From: Amoebophrya sp. A120
Taxonomy: Eukaryota > Protista > Dinoflagellata
Direction of reading: 5' to 3'
DNA: 33,225 nt
Assembly: GCA_905178155.1 (NCBI GenBank)
Contig: CAJINV010000002.1
Location: 1,571,738 to 1,604,962, forward strand
Within the stretch, counting starts at the first letter, position 1, and each line of letters starts with the position of its first letter. This document shows positions 11,501 to 33,225 of the stretch, one piece after another. Below the pieces are notes generated by a model that worked only from the letters and a program-made list of their open reading frames with translations, searched no databases and was not told the DNA's origin. A program made the translations under genes and the position numbers.

Positions 11501-14118
11501 AAATAGCCACCGGCCGCAGGAAAATAACCGAAAACGGTAGGAGCACAGCCCTCGGACTCTGTTCGCATATCGAGAAATAGCCGCCGCAGGAAAAAAGCCG
11601 AAACGGTGGGGAACAGCCCCCGGACTCTGTTCGCACATAGTGAGGGAGCCACCGCGGACGCTCTCCCGCTTCGAATCCCAGCAAGGTCAGGGCGTTAAAT
11701 CACACGCGCCACCGTTCTGCAGCTTCCCCCGCGCAAAATGTGCAGCGGGCCACGATCTTCAACCGCGAGCGATCCACCAAAAAAAAATCCCTCGCTCCGC
11801 AAATTTCATCACAACTCGCGTCAAAAAACATTGCCAACAAGAAACCCGCCCCCGACTTAAATGCTACCCAGATCGCGCGCCTTTTTGCCTAAGTGTCAAC
11901 GTTCGCCGTCAATCAAATCCACTCAGAACCCGACTCAGGGCCCGCCCCTTCTAGTTCTGCTTTCTCCCCCCCGGTGCTCTCGATTTCGCTTCGGGATACA
12001 GATTCCTTTCCCCTGGCTAGTACTAAAGGTGAATAAGAAGAGGCGTACTGCAATACACAGCCAAGCATGGCAAATTGTTGGGCTGCTATGTGATGTTGCG
12101 TTTTCCGCATTTGGCAAACTGCGTTTTTGCATGACATCAAGTAAGCGGACCTCTTCATGCCCCTGCATGATCACAGAGTGTTGAACTTGAATCATGCCAG
12201 ATATGCATGACAAATCTAGAGATCTTCCAGACCCAAACATAATTGCGATGAATACCCTGTCTTGCTCGGCGAAACTCCTTCTTCCACCGCTTTGTCCTGC
12301 TTCTTCCGAAGCTTCAGGGTCGGCTCACCCCGACAACGATGAAAGAACTTGCGTCCGTCATCGTCCTTCTTCATCAATGTTCTGTGAAGAATGCAGTTCG
12401 CACCTTCAAATTCGAAACCCCTGAAGGCGAATTTCGCATAACCATCCGGCGTTCTTAGATCGTCTGCTGGCCCCATCGACAATACATGGTGGCTCACCGG
12501 AGCAGCTTCTTCCGGTCGGACCGCGCTGTCCTCTTCTTCTTCGCCCGAATCAATACTTCCCTCCTCGCCGCAACACCCGGGGAGAGAGTCGCTCCCGTCG
12601 CCGTCGCCAGCGAACCCGTTCTTCATCGCGGCCTCGCGCTCTTTCCCGAGTGGAATCCAGTAGCTTTCCTGAATCACGGGCAGCTCCTATCATTTGTAAA
12701 AACGTACCCACACCAGAGTTGTCATGCAGATTTGCAATGACAGGAACATTTGTAATGCGCATCGCCAGGAGAGGCATTTTTAGTCGTGTTTTGGAATTTG
12801 TAATGCTGTAAACAGGATGAGCAGATGGATTTCTGATGCAGCTGGCCTTGCGAACCTGCACTACACTACGGACTGCAACTTGTGATGNTAATGCTGTAAA
12901 CAGGATGAGCAGATGGATTTCTGATGCAGCTGGCCTTGCGAACCTGCACTACACTACGGACTGCAACTTGTGATGCGTGACCCCCAAAAGTTCTAGGTTT
13001 GTGTTGCAAAATCCCCATCTTGACTCTGGTGTGGGGATGTTTTTACTCAGGATAGCTCCTGCCCCCCAGCACCGTCCGCATCTTGCTCCGAAGGGTCGTA
13101 AGTCGGTCCAGTATCAAAAGGAAAAATGCCCCCTCCCCATATCGAAACGAAGTCTCTGACGCTGGATTTCCGCACACAAATGGGATTTGTCTTGCAGTAG
13201 AGGACTGCAGGCATATGGCAAGCCTGAGCTGAGGGGTTTTGGCATAGGCGCCGAGCATGAAAAAAGTCTTCGCTGTACGCCGAGCAGCATCACAAACCGC
13301 CTGCATAATGTGGCGGACGCTCTGGGCTTGCCCTCTCTCAAGACAGACAGGATTTGTGGTCACAAATCTGCATCGCAAATTTTCAGACGGATGCGCTTTC
13401 AATATGGGGAGGGGGGGTTTTTCCTCGCAATATCCAGCAGTGCTGCTACCGGTTGATGTAGAAGAAGTACTGTTGCTACCAATCAGTAGTTATCAAGGGC
13501 AAATATGTCTGGGGCTGGAAGCTTACAAGATCTGTCATGGAGGTCTCGCATGGCACAGAAGGTCTGGAATGCGAGCTGTAGCATCACAAGTATTATTGAG
13601 AAGGCCTTCCAGTTCCAATGCGTATTCTGCATGAGAAACGTCATCTTCGGGTGCCCAAAAGTGGACGGCTTGTGCTGCTTGCGCAATACAGATTTTTGTA
13701 AGTATCGTCCAGACGTAGCATGACAAACTCTGACTCTTCCAGAGGACCCAGACATATTTGCATTCGATAGTACTTTTTTGTCCCGTAGAAGTTCTTCTTG
13801 CCGTTGTAGTTGCAGGGCAGCACCAGTCTGCAGCTTTTGTTTCTTTCCTGCTCGAGAAGTTGTAGACGAAGCTCTTGCCTGGCCGGTTTTGTGTTCTTGT
13901 TTGTTGTTCACCTTGATCTGCAGTGCGACAGCGAAAAACGATTGCGACGAAAACTGCGGCGCGCACGACAGCACGCCCAACTTGGCCATCCTTCCCAGCC
14001 GACTCGCCCCTGCTGGCAGATTTTTGGTCAACATCTTGGTGCCGGCGCGGGCGCGGCGACCACGTTGGGTGGCCCGAAAGGTTGCAAGATTTTTCTGCTG
14101 GAGGTGCAGCTGCGCCAT
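5562..14118 (-). CDS. Hypothetical protein, ~513 aa, 6 exons; ends in a (GTGVGG)n Gly-rich tail
   Basis: ATG at 14118. Exons with one DR retained: 14118-13770, 13485-13433, 13106-13055, 12682-12255, 6446-6089, 5863-5562. Span 8557 minus 7015 excised = 1542 nt (514 codons). Junctions read RDKKV/LIGSNS, STAG/PTYDPS, GGQE/LPVIQE, SPSKTG/WGGHDK, SYVC/DERSAG. No family recognised; start and stop are not transcript-verified. Confidence 0.8.
5578..5755. repeat. 18-bp tandem repeat CCAGTTCCACCTCCAACT (~9-10 copies), coding GTGVGG on the minus strand
   Basis: Direct inspection; frame fixed by excision of 5869-6088. Confidence 0.9.
5869..6088. mobile_element. Introner, singleton family J (non-canonical intron)
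   Basis: CACAC|TATCGCAAGGGA...TTTTTCTCGCGATA|CACAC; excising 225 nt keeps the frame. Confidence 0.82.
6545..8500. repeat. Pyrimidine-rich degenerate minisatellite (TTTTCCCGGTTTC) with GGAAACCGGGAATC blocks
   Basis: Direct inspection; interrupted by unique sequence at ~6975-7340. Confidence 0.9.
8924..9081. repeat. 28-bp tandem repeat ACCCTTACCCGAAACCACTC..., ~5-6 copies
   Basis: Direct inspection. Confidence 0.85.
10720..11660. repeat. Degenerate ~60-bp unit array (CTGTTCGCACATAGAGAA...GCCGCCGC) with ~180-bp higher-order period
   Basis: Direct inspection; related units at 9715-9840. Confidence 0.85.
12688..13054. mobile_element. Introner, family C
   Basis: DR GCTCC; TATCATTTGTAAAAACGTACCCACACC...GGTGTGGGGATGTTTTTACTCAGGATA; contains an 87-bp duplication around the N at 12888. 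Confidence 0.9.
13112..13432. mobile_element. Introner, family A
   Basis: DR TCCAG; TIR with CCCCCTCCCCATAT; frame restored. Confidence 0.9.
13491..13769. mobile_element. Introner, family B
   Basis: DR GTAGT/GTACT; TIR TATC..GCAAATATGTCTGGG; frame restored. Confidence 0.88.
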
Positions 14119-16351: not shown

Positions 16352-16735
16352 AATAAAATGCAGTAAAAGCGAGTTTGTTTGACGTCGAGAGCAAGATGAC
16401 GCACCAGCGCCGGGATACTACTTTCCCATAAGTTTTTGAATAAAATCAAGTAAAAGCGAGTTTGTTTGACGTCGAGAGCAAGATGACGCACCAGTATCCA
16501 AGAAAAAAACATTGTAGGTGTAACTTTTTTGGAGGAACAGCATTACAAATTTGTCTGGCATGACAGCAAAAACCTGTCATGCGCAGATAGTACGTGAAAG
16601 CGCCCTTTCATGGACCCTGCGACGCATGCCAAGCATGACAGACGCAATCATCTTGCATGTTGAGCATCACAAATTTACACTAACAACGTTTTCTTGGATA
16701 ACCAGCGTCGGGATACTACTTTCACATAAATTTTT
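16352..16735. repeat. ~88-bp tandem duplication; second copy carries the family-H element
   Basis: AGTAAAAGCGAGTTTGTTTGACGTCGAGAGCAAGATGACGCACCAG...CGGGATACTACTTTC present twice. Confidence 0.9.
16495..16700. mobile_element. Introner-type element, family H (downstream of the 16934 stop)
   Basis: ACCAG|TATCCAAGAAAA...TTTTCTTGGATA|ACCAG; inverted relative of 28468-28676; empty-site paralog at ~16352-16440. Confidence 0.92.
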
Positions 16736-16933
16736 CAAAAACAGCACGATCTTAACATTTGAGTTAGGGCGCTTTGGCCTCTTTTTCTTGAAGAACGACC
16801 CAACAAGAGTGATTCTCGTACATTTTTCACAGCAAAGAAGAATACGACTTTTAGAAAAAAAGGCGTAATACTTTCAAAAAAAATACCGGCACGGGCAGCG
16901 CCTCGGCCCAAACCTGCGCTTCTTTCCCCCTCG

Positions 16934-19900
16934 TCACAACCCCGGCATCAATATCCTGAGTAAAAACGTACCCACACCATAGTCAAGATGGGGAATCGGC
17001 TAGACAAATCCACAAGTTTTGGCTGTTTTGCATGACAAATTTGGATTCGTAGTGTAGTGCTGTTTGAGCTAGCTCAGCAGCATCACAGATCTAGCTTACC
17101 ATGCTGATTCGAGCATGACAAATTGCAAAACACGACTAGCAAATGCTTCTCATGGGGCTCCGCATGAGAAACATTTTCAGCATGCAGATTTGCATGACAA
17201 CTCTGGGGTGGGGACGTTTTTAAATAGGATAATCAAAACTTCGTCGTCATCGTCCATATCTCCCGTTGACAAAATCTCCTCTTCGATCTCATCGTCCTCA
17301 AAATCATCCTCATAGTCCCCTCCCGGACTCATTGCCGGCTCGACACCTCCATCTAGTTCTGCTGCAGTGGATATCCTGTGCAAAAGTATCGTACTCGTAG
17401 CAATTGCACTTCTGCATTACAAATCTTTTTCCTAAGGTCAATCAGCATTACAAATTCCATTTCTCATGCTGAGGACGAGATTTGTATTGCGATTTCTACT
17501 AGTACGATACTTTTGCAGTGCATAGTGGAAACAGGAACGTTGCTCACATTCACGGTGACCAGCTTGCTGTTGCCAGTTGGTTCGGTCGACGTGGTTTCAG
17601 CTCCACCAGGAGCCGTTTCTTTCATCCCGTTCGACGCTTCCTGCTTTTTACTCTCTTTCTCAAGCAAATCATATGGATTGCAAAAGTATCGTACTCGTAT
17701 AAATGCATTACAAATTAGCCCAGCATTGCAAATTAAATTTGTAATGCTGTTTTGCCTTGAGAAAGAGATTTGTAATGCATAAATGCAATTACTACGAGTA
17801 CGATACTTTTGCACAGGATAAATCAAATTCCGCGACGAAAGTCTTTGTTTGTTCCCCACTACTATGAAATGCAAAAATGTCTGGGTCTGGAAACTTGTAA
17901 TGCTAAAAGTGAATGATAGACGCGCCGCAATACGCAGCTACGCATGAAAAATTTTGTGGCTGCCATGTCTTACGTATTCCGCATGGCAAACTGCCTTTTC
18001 GCATGACAGTTAAGAGGGCTCTTTCATGCCTACGCAACACAGATTCTCGACTCATGCCAGACAAGCATGACAAACTTGCATTCTTCCAGACCCAGACATT
18101 TTTGCATTTGATAACGACTAGTACCCGACCCTGTCGGCGAGGGCTTTCTACTGCTCGTGGCGCTACTGTTGCTTTTTTCCTTCTCCGCATTGGAGGACGA
18201 CTTGGATATGAAATCATTCAAATCCATGGACTTTGACAGGCTGTTCTCATCTATCCTGATTAAACACGTCCCGCCCACACCAGAGTCAAGACGGGAAACC
18301 TGCTAGACAAATCAACCCGCTTTGGTTGTTTGGCATGACAAGTTTCGATCCTTGTAGCGTAGTCCTGTTTTAGGTAGGTCAGCACGCAGCATCACAGATC
18401 TAGCATAGCATGCTAGTCCTACCATTACAAATTCCCAAACACAACTAGAAAATGCTTCTCATAGGGCTCCGCATGAAAAACTTTTTTGGCATGCAGAACT
18501 GCATGACAACTCCGGGGAGGTGGGGATGTTTTTACAAAGGATATCATCCAGCATGTCCTCGTCGAATCTGTTCAACGATTCCAGCACGTCATTCAGGATC
18601 TTCTCGCTTTTGTTACTTCTCAGCGAATATGCATGGCAAATATGTCTGGGTCTGGAAGAGTGCGAGATTTGTCATGCTAGTCTGGCATGTTGACACTGAG
18701 CTGTGTATTGCGTGGCCAGCAAGAGCTCCTCTTGTCTATCATGCAAGAACCCTGTTTGTCATGCGGAATATGCAACATGGAGCCACGGAAAAATCTGTCA
18801 TGCATGGCGGTGCATTACAGCGTGGCTTCTATTCACTGACATGCATCACAGGTCGTTTCCAGACCCAGACATATTTGCAGTTGATAGCGACGTGAGCAAC
18901 TTGTCCGCCGCGGGGTTTTCGACTTTATTTTTCCCAAAAGACTTCGTGAAAGAACTCGTTTCATCTTGAGACTTCATGATTTTCACCGCCTCGTCGTCTT
19001 TCTCGTCGGCATTCTTCATCTTCTCAACAGGCTTAGAAGTACTACAAGAACCCACTGCAGTAGTACCACCTGCATTCTTCATCGCGCCAACTATCCCGAC
19101 CGCGGAAGAAGAACTAGCGGAGCTGGAAAATTCGTCCACCGCGTCAAAGTCCGCTAGTTGCACGTCGTCATCCAAATGGACTCGCGCGACAGAGTCCCGG
19201 AGACTGGTTTCATCTTCTTCTACCGCGGAAATTTTTACCGGATCGACATCGAGGTCTTGTTCTTTCTCATGCGGTTTTATTTTAACATCTTCCATCACAA
19301 CCGGATCATCATCGTCGTCAAAAAACTCGTTCGTACCGGACGACATTCCGGCTCTGCTCATTTGCAAAGAACTCGCAATCAGGGGATTCATCACTTCGGA
19401 TTTGTCATGATTGTTGGCAGTTTTGTAATCAACATCATGCGAAGTAGCTGTTACCGCGCCAGCTGTACCCTGCATCCGGTTCTGCGAGGAGATAATTACG
19501 CGATTGGGAGAATCGGCGAAGAACTCCACGTGGTCTGGGACTTTATCTTCTTCCTCTGCTGCACCTCCAAAGGCTTGATCCTTTTCTCCTCCGACCGCAG
19601 GATCTACTTCTTTGAAATCTATTTTCCCCAACTGCTCTTCTTATCAAATGCAAAAATGTCTGGGTCTGGAAGAGTGTGAACTTGTCATGCAGGTTTTCCA
19701 TGACCCTTGAGGTCTGGAATGCGGGACCTAGCATGACAGAGTCTGTGAGGTCTCTTTCATGCCTATTCTGCATGAGAAACTGCCTCTAAACTTGTTCAAA
19801 AGTGGCCCTCTTTTGGTAATCATGCAACACAGATTTTTGCATGATTCGGATTTAGCACGACAAGTTGCAATCTTCCAGACCCAGACATTTTTGCAATTGA

Positions 19901-22900
19901 TACTTCTAGACTATCGTTCAATTCCATCTCGTCGTTGTCCATTTCCGGGGAATATGAATTGCAAATATGTCTGCTTCTGGAAACTTGCAATGCTAAAAGT
20001 GAATGATAGACGCACTGCAGCACGCAGCTATGCATGACAAATTTTTTTGCTGCCATGTCTTACGTATTCCGCATGGCAAACTGCGTGCTTGCATGACAGG
20101 CAAGAGGACCTTTTCGCGCCTATGCAACACAGATTCTCGAGTCATGCCAGAAAAGCATGACAAACTTGCATTCTGCCAGACCCAGACACTTTTACATTTG
20201 ATAGAGAATCATGGTGCTGTCCTCGTCGGGCATGCGGTGGAAACAGGTTCAAATCATCGGCTTCATCCACTTTATTCCCATCCTCTTTTTCATCATCTTC
20301 GCTAAACCCTAAGTCCTGCGGCGAAAAACTGTTGCTGATTTTGAAGCGGTCTGGAGATTTTTTCTTCTTACTATTGTTCTCGCCGGTTGTGCGGTGCGGC
20401 AGAAAGAACTTGGAGTTGGAAGATGAATTAGTACTGCTTTTGCTAGTGCTGTTGTCCTCTTTCGTGTACGAAGGATCCGGTTTGCTGGCACCGCTGCTAC
20501 CTCCTTTGTTGTTCATCGTCATGCTCACTACACTGTCCTCACCAAGAAAAACGTCCTCCACAAGATCATCGTCGTCAAAATCGTTTGCGATGATAGCCGC
20601 TGCACCACCGCCGTTTATTGTTCCGGCAGAGGCACTATGCGGAACATCGGCGTTCATTTTCTCCTCTCCTGGATCCGCAAGACAGCCCCGGCGCATCCGC
20701 AATTTTACCGAATTGTTTTCCGAGTCATCGTGCTCTGGATTATTTGGAGACGCCTTCACACTGTTCACCCCAGATACTTCGGAGACAGACACGGTCGAGA
20801 AATTATCCTTGAACGTGTCCGCCTCCTCCCTGGATAAAAACCGATTTTCTCCCAACTCCTGCGGCTGCGCACGGGGGAAAGAAGAGGAAACCGCTGCGGC
20901 TGCAGCTCCTCGAGTCGTGTAAGAGCCCCCTTGTTGTCCACCAGCTGCGGGTATCAACTGCAAAAATGCCTGGGTCTGGAAGAATGCGCGACTTGTCATG
21001 CAGCTTTTCCATGACCCATGAGGTCTGGAATGCACAGACACCTAGCATGACAGGTTCTGTGCGATCTCTCTCATGCCTATCCTGTCGATGAGAAACTCCC
21101 TCCCGACTTGGTCAAGACTGGACGACTTTTGGTAGTCATGCAACACAGATTTTTGCATGCTTCAGATTTAGCATGACAAGTTGCATTCTTCCAGACATCC
21201 AGGGATTTTTACATTTCATAGCGGTTCCCAACAAGGGTCCCTCGTTCGAAAACGACATGGTGCCGGATGCAGTGCAAATTGGAAGGATGCAACTTGTGAT
21301 GCTGCATTCGGATACTACAAAAATCTGTATTGCATCAACAGCAAAAGAGGTCCATTTTTTGCCACGCCGAGAGGGCATTTCTCATGCGGTATAGGCATCA
21401 GGAAGCCCTCTCAAAATCTGAGATGCTATGGCATGCATCACAGACATCAGGAGTCATGCAAAATGTGCATGGCAAACCTTGCATCCTTCCAGACGTCCAG
21501 GGACTTTTGCATTTGATATCCCCGCTGCGGCTCCCATTTTGCCGGAGATAGTTAACGGAGAGGACGTATCAAATGCAAAAGTGTCTGGGTCTGGCAGGAG
21601 ACTCATGCTGTTTTTGCATGACGCAGAAGGTCTGGCGTGGAAGCTCTAGCATCACAAGTTTCGAGAAGCTTCCGCAATGCCGAATCCGCATGACAAATGT
21701 CGCCCCATTTTTGTGACAGAAAGTGGGCAGCTTTTGCTACCTATGCATGACAGATTTTTCTGTGTTCTGAAATGCGCATCACAAGTTTGTCTTCTTCCAG
21801 ACCCAGCCATATTTGCAATCCATAGGACGTTTTCGCTTTCAATGGTGGACTGGATTCCCTCGGCCCGTGGCGGAACTTGTAGTTTTGATGTGCTGTCTGC
21901 TGGTTTTGATTAAAGCCGCTTATCCTCAGTAAAAACGTCCCCACACGCCCAGAGTCAAGTTGGAATCTCCGCAACACAAATTGAAAAGTCTTGGAAATCA
22001 CGCATGACAAGTTTCTCGCTGTATTGTAGTGCTGGTTATGACAAAGGCAGCCGCATGAGAAAGCCGTCCCCTTATCCTGTTTGCAGCATTGCAAATGCCA
22101 AAACACGATTGTAAATGTAATACCTCTCTTGGGGATGCGCATTACAAGTGTGCCTGTCATTGCAATTCTGCATGACAACTCTGGGCGGGTGGGGACGTTT
22201 TTACTCAGGATACCGCTGTTGCTTTCCTTGCTCGTGTTGGACAAAAATTGCTCCGCAACCGATGGTATGAAATGCAAAAATGTCTGGGTCTGGAAGATTG
22301 CCAGGTTTGTCATGCACAGGCTGCATAACCCATGATGCCTGTAATGCACGACCTAGCATCACAGATTTCGAAAGGGCCTTCTGATGCGTATTCCGCATGA
22401 GAAACGCCCACTCCGCGTAGCACAAACTAAACTCCTTTTGCTGGTCATGCAATACAGATTTTTTTTACCTTCCAAAGACAGCATCACAAGTTGCTTTGTT
22501 CCAGACCCAGACATTTTTGCATTTGATAGATGGAAGTTTTTCCTGGTCGAAAGAGGTAGAAAACGCATTCACGTTCTGGTGCGGAAATGCATTGCCATTG
22601 CCCCCACGACCACCTCCGGGCACAACAACTGTGTCCCCCATCGGCGATAACTTCTTCGTGGGATTGTACCCGTGCAGGTGCGCCTCCTGCAACACCTCCC
22701 CCGCAACTGGGGAGACGACTGAACAAGTCTGGTGCTGGCTGGTATTGCTGTAGTTCAGGAAGTTAGACGACTCATTCAGCATCTGCATCTGGTTGCTCAA
22801 GACGCTCGTACTGCTATGTACTACGTCGAATTTCGCCATGCCCGCAACAGCCGCCCCGGAAGTAGATGAGCTCAAATTATTGCTCCCGTATCCTATGTAA

Positions 22901-25900
22901 GAACGTCCCCACCCCATAGTCAAGATGAAGAGCCGGCTAGACAAATCCACAAGTTTTGGCTGTTTTGCATGACAAATTTGGACTCGTAGTGTAGTGCTGT
23001 TTGAGGTAGTTCAGCAGCATCACAGATCTAGTATATCATGCTGATTGGAGCATGACAAATTCCAGAACACGACTAGACAATGCTTCTCATGGGGCTCCGC
23101 ATGAGAAACATTTTCAGCATGCAGATTTGCATTACAACTCTGGGGTGGGGACGTTTTTGAATACGATATCCCGCTACTCTGCTTTAACTCCATGTGCTTC
23201 ACCAGATCGGACATATCCAATGCAAACATGTCTGGGTCTGGAAGACTGCAAGTTTGTCTTGCTTGGCTAGCATGACGCTTAAGTCTGTCATTCACGTTAC
23301 CCAAAAGCCACAGCTTTCTGACATGCAAAAACGCAGTTGTTTGTCATGCCGGATAGACAACACCCAGCAACTCAGAAATTTGTCATGCTCAGCGGTCATT
23401 TGTGGCGTCCTCATGATTTGTCGATCAGCATCACAGGTTTCCAGACACAGACATATTTGCAGTTGATACGACACTTGCTTCGACAGCGTTTCAATCTGCT
23501 CCTGCGCGGATTCGCAAATCTTCCGCATATCCTCGATTTCCGTCGATTTTGTGTTCAGGTTTTGACTCTTTTCCTGTTGCTGCTCTAACTGCTTGATCTT
23601 TGCGACGACTTTTTTCAAATCGTCCAACCGCTCCGTGTGCTGGAACTCGCTAAGAAGGGATTTTTGCGAATCCGTGACCTTCTGGTTGTTTGTTCCGGGA
23701 AGACCTACGAGCTGCTGATTGCTTTCCAGTTGCCACCTGAACTTATTTCCCGATGAATTGATGTTGTTCATCATCCCCAGTTCTTCGTGTTGTCCTACGT
23801 GCTGACCCGGTAGAAGTGCTTCTAGCTCTACTTCCTCTCCCTTGTCCTCTGTCAACGGGGAAAAGGGTCCTTGCAAAATGACCCCGTCGGCTTTCAGATG
23901 CTCCTCCGCTGTGGTGGTGGATTCTTTGGACGGGGCAGCATTTCCTTTTTGGAGTGTATTGTTCTTTTCACTTGCCAGAATTGTTCCAGCGGAAGGAGCA
24001 GCTCTTTGTTGCGTCACCGTGGTAGTAAGCTTCTCTTCTACTTCTTTCAAATTCGCGGTTAACGTATCCACGTCGTCCTCCAGCGTTGCGATTCTACCAC
24101 GAAGAACCGCGTCCCCTTCAGTTCTTTCAGTATCAAATTTCAGCGGAGATGAAGCTGCACCCCCGGCAGTGTTCAACAAAAACTCCCTGTTTTTAACCCT
24201 CGTTTCTACCTGCCCGATTTTTTCCTGCACGAGCTGCAAGTCCATCCGCAAATCCACACTCCTGTCATATAACGCGCTCAGCCGTTACGATCTCAAATGT
24301 TGCAATAGAATATAGAAATCTGTGACGCAAGAGCGCATGATCTAGCCAACCCTCATAGGATTGCGCATGACAAGTTCCAGAGCCAAACCCCACTACAATC
24401 TGGCGAAATTTGTATTGCAGAAAGTGGAACGCTATGCGAGTCTGTCGTGCTCATCATGCAAGACAAATCTCAGACTCTATTGTAACGTTTGACATTGTAA
24501 CACCTGAGCGGGTTATATGTCGTTCGCCTTCTGCGACACTTGCTCCGCTTTCTCGGCCTGCTCCGCGGCGGATTCGGAGCGAGCGTATCAAATGCAAATG
24601 TGCCTGGGTCTGGAAGGATGCAAGATTTTTTGTCATGCACATTTCGCATGACTCCTGACGTCTGTGATGCATGCCCTAGCATCACAGATTTTGTGAGGTC
24701 TCCCTGATGCCTATACCGCATGAGAAAGGCCCTCTCGCCGTCGCCGTGGCGAAAACTAGACCTATTTGATGCTATAAATGCAATACAGATTTTCGTAGTA
24801 TCCAAATGCAGCATCACAAGTTACATCCTTCCCGACCCAGACACGATTGCAATGCATAGACCGGTTAAACGGGCGATTTCGGTGGACAATTGCTCCATTC
24901 GAGCTGTTATGCATTGCAAATAACGTCTTGTCTGGAAAACTTGAACCTGTATTGCTTCGCTTGCATCTTCCCTGTAGAATCTGTCCTGCATGACTGACAA
25001 AAGGAGCGCGACATCTTTGTTCGTACAAAAACGCAGTTTGTAATGCGCATTGCGAAAAAGGAGAAAGCGTCTGAAAAATTTGTCATGGTAGGCCGCTGCA
25101 CTCGAGAGGATGCTCAGTCATTACGATCCAGCATCACAAGTTTCTAGACCCAGATAAATTTGCATTTGATAGCTGTAGATTCCGCTTCTAAAAGATTTTC
25201 CAACGCCTGGAGTTCCTCCTGTAGCTTTTCCTCCGTCACGGTGTTTATTTCTGTTGCAGCTTGTTTCACTTGATTGAACTGTACCACCGTATCAAAAGGA
25301 AGAATCCCCCCTCCCCATATCGAAAACGAAATTTGTGATGCTGTATTTGAGTACACAAATCGATTCGTATTGCTAGAAGGCCAAGAGCCGCAGCTGTGGC
25401 CTGTTTTGCAGGTAATTTGTCATGCTGTTCCATACTTCCAGCTGCCTCCTGTCATGCTGAAAGTGCGAAGAATTCCCACACCGCCCTGCACTACAGTCCG
25501 CAACCTTTTGTTCCCTTCTAGCATGACAAAGCTGATCTGTGTCCACAAATATGCATCACAGATTTCGGTTTTGACATGGGGAGGGGGGATTTTTCTTTTC
25601 GATACACCGCCTCTGCGATTTTCGCGGTACACCCCTCGATGACCGTCGTTATGGAAGTGTCAGAATCGAAATTGAGAAAATCGAAAAACTTGTGATGTAA
25701 AAAATCGATACCAGTTGGAGCCTCAGCTTGTACGTGGCGCATGACAAATTTCGGGAGCACCCAAATTCAGTCTGTCATGCTTTTTGGGCAAAGAAGGCTG
25801 CTCCTGTCGTGCTACTCTGGCAGCACATTGTATACCCATAAACACGCTTACAATCGGCATCGTTTGCCTGTTCCCCACTACAGGCCTTACGTGCCCTACA

Positions 25901-28900
25901 TTTTACGCATCACAAATTTTTCGATTTTGTCGATTTCAAACCTGACGCTTCCATAGTCGTTTCTATCTCCGTAAACTTCGCGTCGACCGCCTCGCCGAAC
26001 TGGTCGGTTTCTTGCTTTAAAGAAGAAATTTCCTTTTTGACAGCATCGGCATTGTCCTGGACCTCCATAATATCCGCTTTGATTTTGTCCATCTCCAACG
26101 CAAGGGTCGTCCCCTTCTCCGCCTTCAACTTTGCTTCCTTCACTAAAGCCTCCAACACGTCCATTTTATCCGGTAAGATCGCCAATTTCGTGTACAGCTG
26201 CGGTGAGATTTTGCTCGAATTCTGCTTTTCCTTTTCCTGCGCTTCCGCCCACTGCTTCACGGTTAAACCCAATTCGTTCAGGTTTTTTTGGAACTGCTCT
26301 TTCAGGGAGGCGACTTCGGTTTGAACTTCTGAAAACTTCTTCATTTCCTGCTCTTGGTCAGCTTGTTGTGCTAGTGCGGTTTTACTTGCGTTCTGCACCG
26401 CAACTGCCTCCGCTTTTGCTGTCCTATCCGCGTCGATTTCTTTTTTCACCGTGTTGATTTGCGAGAAAACGTTTTCCTCCAAATCACTCACCGCGGTTTT
26501 GATTGCGGTTTTCAACTTCTCACTCACCACCCTGTCAATCCGCGCAAGCGTCGCTTGCTCCGTTTCCGTCCCGAGTTTTTCCAAGTCTTCGTTCAATTCT
26601 TTCACCGTGTCGGTTAAGTCCCACAGTTTCGCGGATAATTTCGAAACCTCGTCTTCTTGCTTCGTGGTGACATCCATTTCCGCTTCCATCAGCGCAAATT
26701 GCTTTTGCAGGGTCTGGAGTGAGAATTTATGGACTTGGAATTGCATCGTGATTTGTGCATGACAAAACTTGACTACCATAAAGGACTATGCATGCATGAC
26801 AAAAAGCAAAAAACGACTGTACCTCCCCTTGATGCGAGACTTCCTGCCTCAATTTTTTCTCCACATTCCCGACCAAGACCTGCACATCCTCCACCTTCTG
26901 TGGCATTTTCGCGAACCCCTCAATGCGGTTCGATAAAGTCTGCAACTCCGCTTCCACCGCTTCCAATCGCCAGCTGTTATTACTCCCGTTCGCTTCACTC
27001 GGAACCCCACCAGTTTTCGTTGTTACCGGCGACGCGAGCTGCGGCCCGCAGGAATTTTCATCGTTCATCATTTTGTCGGTCAAATGCCAATCTTCCAAGG
27101 ATTTCAACTTGTTGCTCATGGAAAATTTACTATTCATTTTCTCCTGCATTTCCGCCTCTTGATTCGCGAGTTTCTTCTGGATGTATCCTGTGCAAAAGTA
27201 TCGCACTCGTAGTAATTGCAGTCATGCATTACAAATTTTCTTCTTAATGTAAATCCGCATGACAAATTTTATTTCTCATGCTGGCAAAATTTGTAATGCA
27301 TTTATACGAGTACGATATATTTGCAATGCATAGGATGTCTAATGCCGCAATTTCCAATTCCCGCATCTTCTTATCAAAAGGAAAAATCCCCCCTCCCCGT
27401 ATCAAAACGAAATTTCTGATGCTGGATCCGGATACACAAATCGCGCTTGCCTTGCAGCAGAGGACTGCAGGCATATGCCAAGCCTGAGGCGAGAGGTTTT
27501 GACGTAGGTGCCTAGCATGCCAAACGCCCATGCTGTAGGCCCAACAGCATTACAAACCGCCTACATAGTGCAGCGGACTCTCTAGATTTGCCTTCTTGCA
27601 AGACAAACAGGATTTGTGGTCACAAATCTGCATCACAAATTTTCAGGCGCATGCGTGTTCAATATGGGGAGGGGAGATTTTTCCTTACGATACTTCTTCT
27701 CGTACGTTTGGAACTGCTTTTCCACTTCCAGCTGAATTAATTTCGACACTTGATCGGCGTCGAGGGGTAGTTGCTGCTGTTGTTGCTGCTGCTGCTGTTG
27801 CGATGAAACCGTCGCGGTAATTTGCTCCTGCTTTAGTGAAATGTTCGCAAATTTCTCTTCGAATAATTTCTCCATTTGTAACACCTTGTTGTTCTGCTGT
27901 AAAAAATTCCGCTTCCACTCGGAGGACAAATCCATCTTCTCTAATTTCTGCTTTTGCTCTAAGTTCGCGGTTTCCTGGGCCACGAGCGTTTTGCAGAAAT
28001 CGAGGACTTTCTCGTTCATATTTGAGGCGGAACTTCCGGCGTTCAGGTTGTTTCCAGCGATCTGTTGTTCCCACAATTTTTCGTCTAACTCCTATTACAA
28101 TGAAAAATGCCCCCACCCCCAGCTTGGCAGCATTTGTATTGCAAACCTTTCCAACAGAAACATTCCCCGTCTTGCATGCATCAGCATCACAGATTTTCCA
28201 TGCTGAATAGGTCAAATCTGTGTTGCGAAGTAGCCCAACAGCAGCCGGATCTGTTATGCACAAGGCACCTTGCGCACCCAGCTTCTGCATCAGAAGCGCT
28301 CGCATAATCCTTTCATGCATAGATAAAAAGCTCTTCATTTGAAAACCTTATGCATGACAAACTTCTGCAAATTCCGGGGTGGGGGCATTTTTCATCGTAA
28401 TAACTCCCTCACTTTCTTCTGCAGCTGCTGGATCACGTTGTGCTCGGATTGTGTCATGCTCGGAGTCTATGCAGAAAAAAAACTGTGTAAGTGTAACTTT
28501 GTAATGCAGAACATGCAACAGAGTTACGCCTGTCATGCCAAACAACCATGAAGTCCTCTCTTCATGTGTGTTTTCCCTTACAAACCACGCATGACAGGTT
28601 TTCGCTGTCATGTAGAGCGAATTTGTGATGCTGTCAGCCAAGGAAACTTACACTAACACAGTTTTTTTCTTGTATAGAGTCCCGCCCGCATGATGGCTAC
28701 TAAATCCGGACACATTGTTTCCTGTTGCACTACCCCCTCCTCCTCCTCCTCCGTTGGACACTATCTGCAGGATTTTCTGCTCCAATTTCCCCTCCAATAA
28801 CCCAACCGCCCGCTCGATCTCCCGTCTATCGAGTTCCACCTGCTTCTGCAGACTCGCGATCATGGAGATCGATCGTTGATTTACCAAATCGATCTGCTTC

Positions 28901-29136
28901 TGCAACGTCGCCTGCTGCACCGCCTCGGAATAGGTCGGGTAAATCGAGGTGCCGCCCGTGACAGCAGTAGAACCGCCCACACCAGATGGTACTAGCTGAA
29001 ACCCGCCCTGTTGTATCGTGCGGTTGTGCATGACAGAGTCGCGGTGGTTTTCCCGGTTGCTAAAATTATCCATCTGGCGGTCGCCCTCGCGGAGGATGGA
29101 CGCAATGTGCGCCACCGATGCGTTCACGTGGTCCAT
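16934..29136 (-). CDS. Large hypothetical protein, ~1936 aa, 26 exons; N-terminal half coiled-coil-like (E/K/Q/L-rich), C-terminal half Ser/Asp-rich low complexity
   Basis: ATG at 29136 (MDHVNASV), TGA at 16936-16934. Removing 24 introners (element + 5 bp) and one GT-AG intron (26714-26822) removes 6392 of 12203 nt, leaving 5811 nt (1937 codons). Each junction was frame-checked. It links ORFs 28648-29136, 27633-28076, 26727-27206, 25910-26779, 23292-24257, 22465-22950, 20142-21041, 18846-19631 and the micro-exons without stops. Confidence 0.88.
16952..17231. mobile_element. Introner, family C
   Basis: DR ATCAA; TATCCTGAGTAAAAACGTACCC...GGGGACGTTTTTAAATAGGATA. Confidence 0.9.
17372..17524. 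mobile_element. Introner, family D (~150 bp)
   Basis: DR GTGGA; TIR TATCCTGTGCAAAAGTATCGTACT; frame restored. Confidence 0.9.
17672..17820. mobile_element. Introner, family D (opposite orientation to 17372)
   Basis: DR AATCA; frame restored. Confidence 0.9.
17863..18113. mobile_element. Introner, family B
   Basis: DR ACTAC/ACGAC; TIR AAATGCAAAAATGTCTGGGTCTGGAA; frame restored. Confidence 0.9.
18252..18543. mobile_element. Introner, family C
   Basis: DR TCATC; frame restored. Confidence 0.9.
18628..18886. mobile_element. Introner, family B
   Basis: DR GCGAA/GCGAC; frame restored. Confidence 0.88.
19642..19902. mobile_element. Introner, family B
   Basis: DR CTTCT; near-perfect ~30-bp TIR; junction DSLE/EQLGKIDF. 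Confidence 0.92.
19953..20203. mobile_element. Introner, family B
   Basis: DR GGGAA/GAGAA; close relative of 17863-18113; frame restored. Confidence 0.88.
20952..21220. mobile_element. Introner, family B
   Basis: DR GCGGG/GCGGT; relative of 19642-19902; frame restored. Confidence 0.88.
21266..21518. mobile_element. Degenerate introner, family B
   Basis: Left end reads GAT instead of TAT and lacks the GTCTGGGTC part of the TIR; DR TGCCG/TCCCC; removing 258 nt restores the frame. Confidence 0.72.
21567..21824. mobile_element. Introner, family B
   Basis: DR GGACG; frame restored. Confidence 0.9.
21921..22212. mobile_element. Introner, family C
   Basis: DR CCGCT; near-perfect TIR TATCCTCAGTAAAAACGTCCCCAC. 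Confidence 0.92.
22266..22528. mobile_element. Introner, family B
   Basis: DR GATGG; frame restored. Confidence 0.92.
22889..23168. mobile_element. Introner, family C
   Basis: DR TCCCG; close relative of 16952-17231. Confidence 0.9.
23214..23468. mobile_element. Introner, family B
   Basis: DR GGACA/CGACA; frame restored. Confidence 0.88.
24268..24517. mobile_element. Introner, singleton family F
   Basis: DR TGTCA/TGTCG; long imperfect TIR TATAACGCGCTCAG...CTGAGCGGGTTATA; junction QKAND/RSVDLRMD. Confidence 0.88.
24586..24858. mobile_element. Introner, family B
   Basis: DR GAGCG/GACCG; inverted relative of 21266-21518; frame restored. Confidence 0.88.
24908..25171. mobile_element. Introner, family B
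   Basis: DR GCTGT; frame restored. Confidence 0.88.
25290..25604. mobile_element. Introner, family A
   Basis: DR CACCG; frame restored. Confidence 0.92.
25650..25955. mobile_element. Introner, singleton family G
   Basis: DR GTCGT; TIR TATGGAAGTGTCAG...CTGACGCTTCCATA; frame restored. Confidence 0.9.
26714..26822 (-). other. Canonical GT-AG intron (109 bp)
   Basis: GAG|GTACAG...CTCACTCCAG|ACC; phase 0; joins ORFs 26727-27206 and 25910-26779. Confidence 0.75.
27184..27332. mobile_element. Introner, family D
   Basis: DR GGATG; frame restored. Confidence 0.9.
27372..27692. mobile_element. Introner, family A
   Basis: DR CTTCT; relative of 13112-13432; frame restored. Confidence 0.9.
28093..28402. 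mobile_element. Introner, singleton family E (A-like TIR, different interior)
   Basis: DR ACTCC; TIR TATTACAATGAAAAATGCCCCCACCCC; frame restored. Confidence 0.92.
28468..28676. mobile_element. Introner, family H
   Basis: DR GAGTC; TIR TATGCAGAAAAAAAACTGTGTAAGTGTAA; frame restored. Confidence 0.9.
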
Positions 29137-29806
29137 TTTCTTGGTACTGTTGCGGTCGGTCTCAGTGGAAGGAGTTTTTACGTGGCCGCGGGGTGTAGAA
29201 CTACTTCATTATTCAGGCTGTAGAAACGTGCTTTTCACAGAAAGTTGTAGAAGAACATCCTTACTACGCATACAAAAAAAATGCAACTCAGGAGCACCTC
29301 CCCAGCACCTTTCACAGTTGCACGAACTCGCTTATTTCTGCTTTCGCTCGTTCAGCCTACACGGAAGAGATGCACTCAGAGCGGTCATCGCCTCGGTATC
29401 ATGATGAGAAGCAAAAAGTCCCAACAGACGGCCCCGGACGGAACCCACCTACGGCAGGCACGCAAAAATGCGCCGCATTCTGCTTTTTTTTGTCTCGCAT
29501 TGTCGTTGGTATTGGTACAACTCCATCTTACAAATCTTGTCCAGCGCTGTTCTTGCTTTGTTCGTTGCTTTGTCAGTATTGAGTCCTAATCGCGTGTTGC
29601 ATTACGCTCTATTCTTGCCATTGAAACCTAAAACTAAAATCATTCACAGTGTATCATGTCCGTCGTGTTCTGATGTAAAATTTTGAAACTTCAAATGGGT
29701 GAGAGGCGAAAAAATTTTGTACAAGTGGTTGTAAAACAACTTTCAAGAAACGCATAGTGGTTTTCGATACAAAATGCGTACTGCATCAGAAAAGCGTAAA
29801 AAAACG

Positions 29807-32603
29807 CTAGTCCGACAACAGGTTCTCATGCGATTCCGACTTTTCGAGCGGATTTCTGCTTCCGCCGCCGTTCAATTTCGCCACCGCGGCGCTATTCGTC
29901 GCCGTCATCATCTCCGTCCGTGGAGACGGTGCGAAGACGTCCACTTCGCTATGAAAGAGAGAACAACCTCCCCCCGCTCCCTCACTTGGAAGGCAGGGTC
30001 AGCAACAGAAATGGGAGCAGAAATGCGTGCACTACATGAGAAATCTACCCATGGATTCTAGTTCTGTCTCGGATGCTGCAACTTGTCATGTAAGCTATTG
30101 CAATAAGGCAACAGATTGAGTTGCGTTTTTGCATGACAATTGAGGCGCAGGGGAACAGGTCGTTGTGCAATCATCTCATATTCGCGGAAGCTCATGTTGA
30201 AAAAGTCCTGGCTTGTGCGGACAGACGAGGCCGATGCGGGATAATTCGTGTTGCCAGACGCCGATGCAACCACTTGTGACTTGATGTTCTGCAACTGGGG
30301 AGCTACTGAAACTGATGACGAAGCGGAAAACAAGCCACTACCTTTCTCTTCCACGCTCCCCCCGCCGATTGCTAGAGAATTGTTGTTGGCGTACAAAATC
30401 TTCCGATTAGTGCTGTAGTTGTGCTGCTCCCTGCCACCGTCGTCCCGCCCTAGCACGCTGCTCACATTCCTTGGGGAACCCGGGAGAGCTGGGATCGATC
30501 TTAAACTTGGCGGCTCAGCTATCCTATGTAGAAACGTCCCCACCCCATAGCTGCAATGCAAATCTGCATGCTGAAAGTGTTTCTCATGCGGAACCCCATG
30601 GGAAGCGTTTTCCAGTGGTGCTTTGAGATTTGTTATGCTCAAACAAGCATGATAAAACGGATCTGTGATGCTTCGGAACTGGCTAAACAGGATTACACTA
30701 CGAGGACAGACTTGTCATGCGAAATAACCAAAAGTGGCTGCCTTGTCTAGCGGATTTTCCATCTTGACGGATTCCGGTGTGGGGACATTTTTACTCAGGA
30801 TATCAGCTGCTGCTGCTGCGTGTGTCGTGGTTCCTTGTTTCGAAGTATTGTGAGGAAAAATCCCCCCTCCCCATATTGAGCAGGTATGTTCCTAAAAATT
30901 TGTGATGCTGATATGTGGCCACAAATCCTGTCTCTCTTGCAAGAGGGCAAATCCAAAGAATCCGCCGGCCTATGCAGGCGATTTGTAATGTTGTTGCGGC
31001 TACATGGCAGGCCTCTGCTATGCTAAGCACCTACATCAAAACACACCTACACAGGCTTAGGCGTTGCCTGCAGTGTCTCTCTGCAAGACAGAGCTGATTT
31101 GTGTACACAAATCCAGCAACACAAATTTCCGTTTTAATATGGGGAGGGGGGGATTTTTCCTCACAATACGAAGAGCTCGCGGAAATCGTACTTCCACTGC
31201 CACTAGTTCCGTTCAAAGGCCCCACTCCGCTGTTAAAAGCTTTGCCCTTCTCCATATCAGCCTGCTGTTTCAAATGCTCCTTCCGCCCGGGTAAGCCGAA
31301 GCAGAATTCCTCGAACTCCAGGGAGTTCTCTTTATGTTCGAACGCCCGCCAGATCTGCTGTAAGACCAATTTCTTGTTCGGATTCTTCTCGTTGATCAAC
31401 TTGGTGCAACCTAATTCGAACAAATTCTTCGTCATCAGCCTCGCAGGCGTCGCGTGCATGATCGTCTTCCAGGTGTCTTGGATGGTCTTGGTGTACCGGG
31501 CGGTAATGAGCTCGCGGAAGAGAATTAGAAGGACGGCTTTTACCTGATACAGAGGCGGATTAATTTTTGTCATGTGGTGATGTAAACCAAGAAGAGAACA
31601 AACTTCATCCAAATCCAGCATGACAAAAACCTTTATACTCATCCAAATCCAGCATGACAAAAACGATACCTCATCCAAATCCAGCATGACAAAAAACATT
31701 CACACTTAGTACCTGTTCCGGCACATTCGCCTGTGCGTACTTCAACTCCTCCCGTAAATGCGCCAACTTATCCTGTGCAAAAGTACCGCGCTCGTACTAG
31801 TAAAAATCGCAGTCATGCATTAGAAATCTTTTTCTTGAGGTAAATCCGCATTGCAAATCCTAATTCTCATGCTGAGGAAATTTGTCATGCGCTTTGTCGG
31901 TTTGTACCAGTACGATACTTCTGCAATTCATACAATTGCACTTTCTCTAAATCCAATTGCTCCCTCTCCTCCTTGATCTGCAATTCCACCGTGCTTCGCC
32001 ACTTTTTGATTTCCTCGTCTAACTTCAAGTTCGCGGCTTGAAACTCCGACTTTATCGTCTGCATCTCCTTCTCGTGCTTTAGTTTCAACTGGACTAACGC
32101 GTCTTGCTTCTCTAAGTCTTGTTTTTTCTTCACCGATTCGATTTTCTTCTCCATGTTCTTCTCCAACTCGTTGCATTCATTTCTGAACTCTTCCTATCAA
32201 CTGTAAAAATGTCTGGGTCTCCTGGAAAGTTGGAACTTGTGATGCTAACTTTGGACTCTAAAAAAATGTGTATTGCATGACAAGCAACACGAGCCACATT
32301 TGTGCTACGCGAGGAGGGCATTTGTCATGCGAAAATGGCATCAGGAAGCGTTCCAAAAATCTGTGATGCTGGGTCATGCATTACAAGCATCATGGCTCAT
32401 GCCAGACAAGCATGACAAGCCTTTCATTCTTCCAGACCCAGACATTTTTACATTTGATACTTCCTTCAGCTGTTTAATTCCCTCGTGATTTAATTTCTCT
32501 AGCTGCTCTTTCTCCTCCCGGAATTCCTTCACTAAAGCCTTTTTCGCCAAATCAAACTCCGCCTGCTTGTTCTTCATTTGCTTCTCGAATAATTTCTTTC
32601 CCT
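29807..32603 (-). CDS. Hypothetical coiled-coil protein, 3' part only (~445 codons in window)
   Basis: Frame is continuous from GKKLFEKQMKNKQAEF to ...SHENLLSD* (TAG 29809-29807) after removing 5 introners and the GT-AG intron 31544-31712. The upstream boundary is an introner end at 32604, so the 5' exons lie outside the window. Confidence 0.8.
29950..30180. mobile_element. Introner, singleton family I (diverged TIR)
   Basis: TTCGC|TATGA...TCATA|TTCGC; junction MSFRE/VDVFAPSP. Confidence 0.75.
30520..30802. mobile_element. Introner, family C
   Basis: DR TCAGC; frame restored. Confidence 0.9.
30846..31168. mobile_element. Introner, family A
   Basis: DR CGAAG; perfect terminal TATTGTGAGGAAAAATCCCCCC repeat; frame restored. 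Confidence 0.92.
31544..31712 (-). other. Canonical GT-AG intron (169 bp) with three tandem TCATCCAAATCCAGCATGACAAAAA copies
   Basis: CAG|GTACTAAG...TGTATCAG|GTA; phase 0; junction NVPEQ/VKAVLL. Confidence 0.78.
31769..31932. mobile_element. Introner, family D
   Basis: DR CAACT/CAATT; frame restored. Confidence 0.88.
32195..32459. mobile_element. Introner, family B
   Basis: DR CTTCC; frame restored. Confidence 0.9.
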
Positions 32604-32650
32604 TATGCATTGCAAAACTATCCGTACTAGTAGAAGCTGCATCACAAACA
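32604..32650. mobile_element. One end of a D-like introner, running into GC-rich repeat; partner end not in window
   Basis: TCCCT|TATGCATTGCAAAACTATCCGTACTAGTAGAAGCTGCATCACAAA resembles the family-D terminus. Confidence 0.7.
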
Positions 32651-32878
32651 AGGTCCGAGCACGGGGACAGAGTCCCCGTGCGGCGACCTTCCGGCATTTG
32701 TCTGCGCGGTGGCACTGGGCAGGCAGGTCGCTCGCAGCTAGGTATCTCGGTGCGCCTTGCATTCAATGACCCGCGACGGGCCTGCGGACGCGGCACCCTT
32801 GCTTGCGCGCACTGGATTCATCAGCCTGCCGCGCGCAAAGATAAAAAGAAAAGAAGAAACTGGCGCCGGGTCTGCAGC

Positions 32879-33225
32879 CGGCCCCGACGTCATGGCGCGG
32901 CGACAGAGTCCCCGCATTGCCCTAGGGCTTCTGTCTCTTTGCATGCCCCCTCCCTGGCCGCGCGGTGTCGTTCCCGGGGAGCGCGCCCAGCTGGCCCCTA
33001 GGCCATGACGCGGGGACCAAGTCCCCGCGCTGGCCTAGGGCTTTCGCCCCTTGGCAGAGCGGTGTCCGGGGGGCGCACACAGCTGGCCCCTAGGCCATAA
33101 CGCGGGGGCCGAGTCCCCGCGCTGGCCTAGGGCTTTCGCCCCTTGGCCGAACGGTGTCCGGGAAGCGCTTACAGCTGGCCCCTAGGCCATGACGCGGGGA
33201 CCGAGTCCCCGCGCTGGCCTAGGGC
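32879..33225. repeat. 92-bp GC-rich tandem repeat with a strong hairpin (CCCTAGGCCA..GCGGGGAC/GTCCCCGC..TGGCCTAGGG)
   Basis: Units start at 32991, 33083 and 33175; degenerate unit at ~32879; runs off the window. Confidence 0.9.

What the first reader, a model, noticed from the sequence alone, without database searches (positions are those of the whole stretch)
16934..29136. A gene readable only by excising 24 transposon-like, non-GT-AG introns
Seen: 24 of 25 introns are DR5|TAT..TIR..ATA|DR5 elements from 8 families. Removing element + one DR gives an uninterrupted 1937-codon frame. The DRs share no consensus (sense strand CATCC, TCCAC, AGAAG, GACTC, TTGAT...). At 27184 and 17372 no register within the DR yields GT/GC...AG. 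Established: such introners are described in Amoebophrya (Farhat et al. 2021), so the class itself is not new, but to my knowledge the excision chemistry is unresolved. Inference: intron ends are defined by TIR pairing and the invariant TAT/ATA rather than by splice dinucleotides, and excision is seamless at the protein level.
Basis: partly seen in the sequence, partly recalled or inferred. Interest (0 to 1): 0.9.

Follow-up and report, generated by a model that had tools for sequence, protein, structure and literature searches.

The report
Transposon introns cut by fixed ruler
A gene of a marine parasite is interrupted by 24 small transposon copies that lack normal intron signals yet are missing exactly from assembled sequences that are likely its RNA; this intron class is already published, but the cut points here suggest a likely hidden rule (cut one base before and four bases after the element) that would make the unknown splicing chemistry testable.

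Summary
Confirmed, and the class is known: these are Amoebophrya A120 introner elements (Farhat 2021), and the spliced 1936-aa protein is identical to NCBI CAD7932200.1. None of the 24 elements has a GT/GC-AG register. Contigs from two samples (RNA by inference) lack the elements; a DNA-behaving run keeps them, so DNA excision is not supported. What the searches did not find in print: eight imperfect direct repeats leave one common register, 5'-N|TAT...ATA NNNN-3' (one base before, four after the element); its upper bound rests on one intron. In a close relative, terminal mutations are strand-asymmetric: +2 T and the -7 A never changed, while +4, -6 and -5 did (12 confidently oriented cases, Fisher p about 0.008, post hoc). 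So single bases, not TAT/ATA pairing, seem constrained, which fits a spliceosome with a relaxed donor, a predicted branch A at -7 and no AG. All families share an internal box. The chemistry is untested. The scan's earlier notes report similar position-set 3' ends on other DNA.

The parts
16934..29136 (-). Protein-coding gene, 26 coding exons, 1936 aa, no Pfam family above cut-off (GSA120T00015749001 / CAD7932200.1)
29137..29201 (-). 5' UTR; the spliced contig ends at 29201 on an AG, possibly the spliced-leader acceptor (inferred)
   Evidence: table 8
28464..28677 (-). Intron 1, element family H (intron coordinates in the 1+4 register)
   Evidence: record arithmetic
28089..28403 (-). Intron 2, family G
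   Evidence: record arithmetic
27368..27693 (-). Intron 3, family E
   Evidence: record arithmetic
27180..27333 (-). Intron 4, family B
   Evidence: record arithmetic
26714..26822 (-). Intron 5, canonical GT-AG, 109 nt; two internal boxes; A at -7
   Evidence: 26713 joined to 26823 in X3, X4; spanned unspliced in X1
25646..25956 (-). Intron 6, family F
25286..25605 (-). Intron 7, family E
24904..25172 (-). Intron 8, family C; spanned whole by a DNA contig
   Evidence: X1 piece 24803-25319
24582..24859 (-). Intron 9, family C; repeat mismatch at position 3 allows registers 3-5
   Evidence: piece coordinates
24264..24518 (-). Intron 10, family D; mismatch at position 1
23210..23469 (-). Intron 11, family C; mismatch at position 5, the only intron that excludes register 5
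   Evidence: piece starts 23470 in X3 and X4; X1 confirms the genomic base
22885..23169 (-). Intron 12, family A
22262..22529 (-). Intron 13, family C
   Evidence: joint shown
21917..22213 (-). Intron 14, family A
   Evidence: joint shown
21563..21825 (-). Intron 15, family C
   Evidence: joint shown
21262..21519 (-). Intron 16, degenerate family C copy (ends ATC, repeat 3/5, deletion in the 3' TIR); allows registers 4-5 only
   Evidence: joint 21260-21519, both=1, X3 and X4
20948..21221 (-). Intron 17, family C; mismatch at position 1
   Evidence: joint shown
19949..20204 (-). Intron 18, family C; mismatch at position 4 allows registers 4-5 only
   Evidence: joint 19947-20204, both=1
19638..19903 (-). 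Intron 19, family C
   Evidence: joint shown
18624..18887 (-). Intron 20, family C; mismatch at position 1
   Evidence: joint shown
18248..18544 (-). Intron 21, family A
   Evidence: joint shown
17859..18114 (-). Intron 22, family C; mismatch at position 3 allows registers 3-5
   Evidence: joint 17857-18114, both=2
17668..17821 (-). Intron 23, family B, inverted relative to introns 4 and 24
   Evidence: joint shown
17368..17525 (-). Intron 24, family B
   Evidence: joint shown
16948..17232 (-). Intron 25, family A
   Evidence: joint shown
16491..16701 (-). Element intron in the 3' UTR, related to family H
   Evidence: joint 16489-16701
16362..16447 (.). Element-free paralogue of the UTR insertion site (86-nt tandem duplicate, 7 differences): shows that the 5-nt repeat is a target-site duplication
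31544..31712 (-). Predicted GT-AG intron of the upstream gene with the same 1+4 geometry (G+TAC...GTA+TCAG); G, not A, at -7
   Evidence: not checked against RNA
6448..12255 (-). Annotated 5.8-kb intron of the downstream gene: a family C element with a nested 5.5-kb repeat-rich insert, bounded by a perfect 5-nt repeat
   Evidence: annotation only

Best explanation
The 24 inserts are non-coding transposon copies with 5-nt target-site duplications that stay in the DNA and are missing exactly from contigs that are likely mRNA, and they are likely removed by a modified major spliceosome that cuts one base before and four bases after the element. In that reading the intron is N-U-R-Y...A-N6. U+2 and a purine at +3 would be what remains of the normal donor, the first A of the terminal ATA (position -7) is the predicted branch nucleotide, and the 3' cut would be set by distance from it, without AG. 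The inverted-repeat stem would hold the two ends together in place of U1. Because 1+4 equals the 5-nt duplication and both element ends read TAT inward, an insertion at any sequence and in either orientation would be removed without a trace. Shown: anatomy, exact removal, retention in DNA, both orientations. Inferred: one uniform register (about 0.8). Untested: spliceosomal chemistry, the branch A, the role of the stem.
For: Removal: one 6132-nt contig matches the model at 10 of 10 checked coordinates; 13 of 25 coding joints are displayed, the rest follow from piece coordinates; a second sample repeats the 21-27 kb part. Register: allowed sets from 8 imperfect repeats intersect only at 4. A predicted GT-AG intron nearby has the same geometry. 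An A120 orthologue of locus L004 has the residue expected for a register of 4 or less (weak). 5 of 7 elements with a changed 5' triplet have G at the predicted +1 against 31% background, p 0.02-0.06. Asymmetry: among 12 confidently oriented elements with a changed triplet, TIR position 1 changed 5 times at the 3' end and 0 at the 5' end, position 3 changed 4 times at the 5' end and 0 at the 3' end; control TIR positions 8-30 changed 44 vs 40 times. The one +3 change is A to G. Literature: A120 keeps 83 of 89 spliceosomal proteins and U2, U4, U5, U6, with U1 undetected (PMC7789003). The U2 spliceosome removes non-GT-AG introns in Fritillaria (PMC13326754). A fixed branch position at -8 is reported in Entamoeba invadens (10.1101/2022.06.08.495308).
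Against: No lariat or other intermediate was observed. The upper bound of the register rests on intron 23210-23469 alone, whose predicted donor happens to be GT. The runs are labelled 'RNA?' and are contigs from one study. The asymmetry test is post hoc, small, and in a relative without RNA data; strand callers disagree for L019-763 and L055-526 and are near ties for four more. The GT-AG intron 31544-31712 has G at -7. Bases around the -7 A form no clear branch consensus. No G-U over A-C excess in the stems, and the degenerate intron 21262-21519 is cut exactly although 0 of its first 30 bases pair in register, so a role for the RNA stem is not shown. Intact elements are not enriched for GT-AG in any register (at most 6 of 137).
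Confidence: 0.57

Rival explanations
1. A separate, non-spliceosomal or second machinery, as proposed for Euglena nonconventional introns, measures from the stem (here 1 and 4 nt), cuts, ligates the exons and releases a circle or linear RNA.
For: Same overall design: inverted repeats, slidable direct repeats, free spacers, no terminal dinucleotides (PMC12501133; circles in PMC11282704). Most elements are predicted to fold end to end. Works in both orientations. U1 undetected.
Against: The constrained bases (U+2, purine +3, a 3' A) resemble spliceosomal signals and are strand-specific, while pair-breaking changes at the three terminal pairs are tolerated. Hybrid ends (GT-nonAG, nonGT-AG) are common here, whereas Euglena keeps the two kinds apart.
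Confidence: 0.25
2. RNA-level removal is real but the cut slides within the direct repeat, intron by intron (for example using a GT or AG where one exists), so there is no single register.
For: Only one intron excludes register 5 and it has GT at register 4; Farhat 2021 calls splice sites variable relative to the hairpin (Fig. 3 legend).
Against: Four introns exclude registers 0-2 and two exclude 0-3; both ends must move together to keep exactly 5 nt; intron 21262-21519 has 1 nt of shared sequence at the joint.
Confidence: 0.12
3. The elements are excised from DNA, like ciliate internal eliminated sequences, in the transcribed genome copies.
For: Transposon anatomy; the spliced runs are only guessed to be RNA.
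Against: Run X1 gives contigs running through exon-element borders and across one whole element, with 0 differences, and depth 0 at the 4 true joints displayed (53 rows hidden). The spliced contig also lacks the GT-AG intron and stops at the gene's 5' end.
Confidence: 0.03
4. The junctions are reverse-transcriptase template-switch artefacts at hairpins flanked by short repeats.
For: Hairpin plus direct repeat is the known substrate for such artefacts (recalled; PMC2923612 seen as a search listing only).
Against: All 26 introns are missing from one contig; 24 of 25 coding introns would give a stop or frameshift if kept; two joints have only 1 nt of microhomology.
Confidence: 0.02

Closest known systems
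Introner elements among the non-canonical introns of Amoebophrya A120 (Farhat et al. 2021, PMC7789003)
   Same: Same organism label, TAT-initiated inverted repeats, 5-nt direct repeats, about 240 nt, no coding capacity, RNA-supported; this gene's protein is already annotated letter for letter.
   Different: The paper's text leaves the border position unknown and reports no end signature; this work proposes a fixed 1+4 register, strand-specific constraints (U+2, R+3, A-7) and a box shared by all families. Its figures were not visible and may show part of this.
Euglena nonconventional introns (PMC12501133; PMC11282704)
   Same: Inverted repeat with free spacers to the splice sites, slidable direct repeats, MITE-like origin, coexistence with GT-AG introns.
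   Different: Euglena code is N3-CDG...CHG-N5-6 with an exonic purine; here the spacers are 1 and 4 nt, the motif is TAT/ATA, and the first exon base takes all four values. Circular products are reported for Euglena, unknown here.
Non-canonical MITE-derived introns of Fritillaria borealis (PMC13326754 abstract and introduction; PMC11282704 passages)
   Same: Transposon-derived non-GT-AG introns in bulk; removed by the U2 spliceosome, which is the mechanism proposed here.
   Different: Fritillaria keeps U1 and has preferred ends (AG-AC, AG-AT); here neither terminal dinucleotide is fixed beyond U+2.
Introners of Micromonas and Aureococcus (PMC11282704, PMC9860276 passages)
   Same: TIR elements with target-site duplications that become introns on insertion.
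   Different: Those carry one canonical site and take the other from the duplication; here no target sequence is required.
Fixed-distance branch point introns, e.g. Entamoeba invadens (10.1101/2022.06.08.495308)
   Same: Branch A at a nearly fixed distance (-8) from the 3' end, close to the -7 proposed here.
   Different: They keep AG and an AYTRAY consensus; these do not.

Membership tests
Amoebophrya A120 introner elements (Farhat 2021) | Non-GT-AG ends | tested here: met
   0 of 24 in any equivalent register
Amoebophrya A120 introner elements (Farhat 2021) | Terminal inverted repeats starting TAT | tested here: met
   5' TAT in 24 of 24, 3' ATA in 23 of 24
Amoebophrya A120 introner elements (Farhat 2021) | 3-5 nt direct repeat at the borders | tested here: met
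   5 nt; 16 of 24 perfect; 176 of 223 perfect in related loci
Amoebophrya A120 introner elements (Farhat 2021) | Repeated in the genome; removed from transcripts | tested here: met
   8 clusters; summed DNA depth up to about 69,000 against about 27 on exons; joints (runs are RNA by inference)
MITE-like non-autonomous TIR DNA transposons | Target-site duplication made on insertion | tested here: met
   Element-free paralogue in the 3' UTR carries one copy of the 5-mer
MITE-like non-autonomous TIR DNA transposons | A cognate transposase or autonomous copy | tested here: inconclusive
   No Pfam hit of note in 16 + 10 frames in and around the 5.8-kb element; no transposase recognised by eye behind unpaired ends; no genome held
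U2-type spliceosomal introns | GT/GC-AG ends | tested here: not met
U2-type spliceosomal introns | Branch adenosine and lariat intermediate | not testable with these tools
   A at -7 is constrained but no intermediate can be seen in contigs
U2-type spliceosomal introns | Dependence on U2/U5/U6 snRNPs | not testable with these tools
   components present per PMC7789003
Euglena nonconventional introns | N3-CDG...CHG-N5-6 with exonic purine | tested here: not met
   ends are N-TAT...ATA-N4; first exon base C, T, G or A
Euglena nonconventional introns | Release as full-length circles | not testable with these tools
   no raw reads on this gene
Ciliate-type DNA elimination | Element-free alleles in DNA | tested here: not met
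   one DNA-behaving run, 4 true joints displayed at depth 0, contigs cross the borders; contigs drop rare variants

The most novel reading that the evidence does not exclude
Amoebophrya A120 runs a spliceosome that has dropped both G+1 and the 3' AG and reads a palindromic code supplied by the transposon ends (U+2 at one end, a branch A seven bases from the other, a shared internal box in place of U1), with spacers summing to the 5-nt target duplication, so that one transposon superfamily inserts into any exon position, in either orientation, at no cost to the protein.
Probability: 0.4. Interest if true: 0.85.

Novelty: already known. Interest (0 to 1): 0.62.

Why it matters
More than 60% of A120 introns are non-canonical and their splicing mechanism is stated to be open (PMC7789003). 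A fixed register and a named candidate branch nucleotide turn that into direct tests with existing RNA-seq (non-slidable junctions) and one lariat experiment. If true, it shows how far a spliceosome can shed its terminal-base rules, explains why these transposons spread through exons without target preference, and gives a simple rule to correct tens of thousands of gene-model borders. The gene and the intron class themselves are not new.

Tried and rejected
No RNA holder is listed on record; the three raw-read RNA runs gave no reads on exons, only on element look-alikes, and were uninformative. The TIR pattern was not found in viral contigs. Enrichment of GT, AG or GT-AG at any register in 90-137 oriented elements of 211: none clear. 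Position of repeat mismatches in those elements: spread evenly, uninformative. G-U versus A-C asymmetry in stems: none. A sense-strand bias of the internal box seen in this gene (52 vs 26, counted) did not hold in the larger set (154 vs 134, 195 vs 197, 221 vs 210). The codon-score strand call for L019-763 was overturned by a 608-aa spliced frame, so '+3 A invariant' was relaxed to 'purine'. Seven of 24 candidate variant-end elements were dropped after inspection (L007, L041, L060, L062, L076, L079: no family ends, five with no box; L100: mis-registered); kept in under the strict caller, the test is 0:4 and 5:1 (p 0.048; 0.015 with the window's case). Farhat Table S4 (top nine A120 motifs all have T at +2) was not counted as support because aligner preferences could produce it (recalled). 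The 5.8-kb element as an autonomous master copy: rejected for lack of a coding hit. No annotated protein was found for the upstream gene. Function of the protein: no Pfam hit above cut-off, only itself in the homologue search, Atlas hits below 0.9.
Full report
Observation. The region 16934-29136 holds 24 elements of 149-321 nt bounded by inverted repeats that start TAT and flanked by 5-nt direct repeats. Twenty Markov-resampled copies of the region gave 2 comparable pairs in all. Sixteen of 24 repeats are perfect. The elements fall into 8 clusters at 60-65% identity, and members of one cluster lie in both orientations, for example 17672 against 17372 and 27184, and 21266 against 24586. Removing each element plus 5 nt, and one GT-AG intron (26714-26822), gives a minus-strand frame of 1936 aa plus stop, identical to the NCBI protein CAD7932200.1 of Amoebophrya sp. 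A120. None of the 24 has a GT/GC-AG register. The protein has no Pfam hit above cut-off and no relative found; by eye it is coiled-coil-like in its first half and low-complexity in the second, so a scaffold role is a guess.

RNA or DNA. Run X3, guessed to be RNA, has one 6132-nt contig covering 16701-29201 with 10 joints displayed (9 coding, 1 in the 3' UTR); my model predicts its coordinates at 10 of 10 checked places. A second lay shows 4 more joints, identical in X3 and X4 (two samples, one study), and piece coordinates for the next introns; the four 5'-most introns follow only from total length. Run X1 behaves as DNA: its contigs cross exon-element borders, span one whole element and the GT-AG intron without differences, and have depth 0 at the 4 true joints displayed, with 53 rows hidden. 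So the elements stay in DNA and are missing from the likely mRNA. Retention would break the frame in 24 of 25 introns. An 86-nt tandem duplicate in the 3' UTR has one copy without the element and with a single 5-mer, which shows that the repeat is a target-site duplication.

Register. Call k the number of upstream repeat bases kept in the exon. The eight imperfect repeats allow: 17863 {3-5}, 18628 {1-6}, 19953 {4,5}, 20952 {1-5}, 21266 {4,5}, 23214 {0-4}, 24268 {1-5}, 24586 {3-5}. The only common value is 4: the intron is N-TAT...ATA-NNNN. The bound k at most 4 rests on one intron, seen in both samples, with the genomic base confirmed by X1; its donor at k=4 is GT, so it could be special. Three weaker lines agree. 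A predicted GT-AG intron of the upstream gene (31544-31712) is G+TAC...GTA+TCAG with a 4/5 repeat. In locus L004 the repeats differ at position 5 and the A120 orthologue (94% identical) has the residue given by k of 4 or less. Elements with a changed 5' triplet have G at the predicted +1 in 5 of 7 cases against 31% (p 0.02-0.06).

Which bases matter. Seventeen family elements have one changed terminal triplet, after 7 of 24 candidates were dropped as spurious or mis-registered. Eleven are oriented by a spliced frame of at least 100 aa and 1.3 times the other strand (one is a cullin); the window's 21266 element is oriented by RNA. In these 12, TIR position 1 changed 5 times at the 3' end (-5) and never at the 5' end (+2); position 3 changed 4 times at the 5' end (+4) and never at the 3' end (-7); position 2 changed 3 times at -6 and once at +3 (A to G). 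Fisher's test on positions 1 and 3 gives 1/126, about 0.008 (by hand); the six weakly oriented cases mostly agree, though the callers conflict for L055-526. Control positions 8-30 changed 44 vs 40 times. Five cases were seen by eye first, so the test is partly post hoc. T-to-C and A-to-G changes both occur on the sense strand at neighbouring positions, so mutation bias does not explain the gaps. Pair-breaking changes are tolerated while the wobble-keeping change at -7 was not seen, so single bases rather than terminal pairing seem constrained. Stems are predicted for most elements but show no G-U excess (26 vs 23), and the degenerate 21266 element pairs only in an offset register.

Shared box. 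A motif with consensus AAAYYTGTVATGCW occurs 78 times in 6392 intron bases and twice in 5811 exon bases, in all 25 introns; in 231 of 235 elements and all 16 clusters, 686 times against 7 in shuffles, first copy mostly 30-49 nt from each end, with same-orientation spacings peaking at 31-33 and 39 nt (141 of the 235 belong to the family used as bait). It is absent from four non-element stretches and present at +22 in both GT-AG introns checked. It has no strand bias in the larger set. The simplest reading is a binding site for one mobilising protein shared by all families; an intron mark is the alternative. Untested.

Mechanism. The best fit is a modified major spliceosome: U+2 and a purine at +3 as donor remnant, the -7 A as branch nucleotide, the 3' cut by distance, the stem in place of U1. 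Farhat et al. report 83 of 89 spliceosomal proteins, U2, U4, U5 and U6 in A120, and no U1 or minor spliceosome. Against: no intermediate seen, no branch consensus around the A, and G at -7 in intron 31544-31712, although the GT-AG intron inside the gene has A at -7. The main rival is a Euglena-like separate machinery.

Known or new. The elements meet every tested feature of the A120 introner elements, and the gene is annotated, so the thing is known. Farhat's Fig. [quoted passage not shown] Searches for a register, branch point or lariat in Amoebophrya found nothing further; Roy et al. 2023 was not held and may bear on it. What I saw of each paper: PMC7789003 abstract, results sections on introns, the intron discussion, and supplement text (legends, rows of Tables S4-S7), no figures; PMC12501133 passages and discussion; PMC13326754 abstract and introduction; PMC12130899, PMC11282704, PMC12005148, PMC11453091, PMC9860276 and 10.1101/2022.06.08.495308 passages; PMC2923612 search listing only. 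Earlier scan notes on other genomes describe position-set 3' ends and exact removal of similar introns; none exists for this genome or sequence.

Verdict. Observation confirmed; class already known; a candidate splice code, not found in the searched literature, makes the open mechanism testable. Interest 0.62.

Noticed in passing
window 6448-12255: The annotated 5.8-kb intron of the downstream gene (P0002) is a family C element interrupted by a 5.5-kb repeat-rich insert (about 6495-12021) flanked by ACTAA; if the annotation is right, ends 5.8 kb apart still define the cut.
   Followed up: partly
window 32607-33225 and 1-4300: A family B element start at about 32607 runs into GC-rich tandem repeats; similar repeat arrays fill 1-4300. 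Large repeats seem to land inside these introns, also in loci L007, L025, L030, L050.
   Followed up: no
window 31605-31695: A 32-nt tandem repeat inside the predicted GT-AG intron carries the shared box, matching the 31-33-nt box spacing of the elements.
   Followed up: partly
window 29200-29201: The spliced contig ends on an AG 65 nt upstream of the ATG, as expected if spliced-leader and unspliced forms branch there.
   Followed up: no
window 12799-12975: An 88-nt duplication around the window's single N (12888) inside element 12688-13054 looks like an assembly artefact.
   Followed up: no
window 4364-4674: An intact family E-like element with a perfect repeat lies outside any frame examined; it may be a UTR intron or intergenic.
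   Followed up: no
window 30058-30190: Box-bearing stretch at the 3' end of the upstream gene's frame that looks like a decayed element or unrecognised intron.
   Followed up: no
window 16558-17058 (runs X10, X11): Raw RNA reads of the 2026 runs match element interiors at 90-99% with unrelated flanks, so related element copies are present in abundant RNA of another strain or species.
   Followed up: no
L117:65-330: A cullin gene of the relative carries an element whose 3' triplet is AAG; GT-GG at register 4, GG-AG at register 3: a good single test locus.
   Followed up: partly
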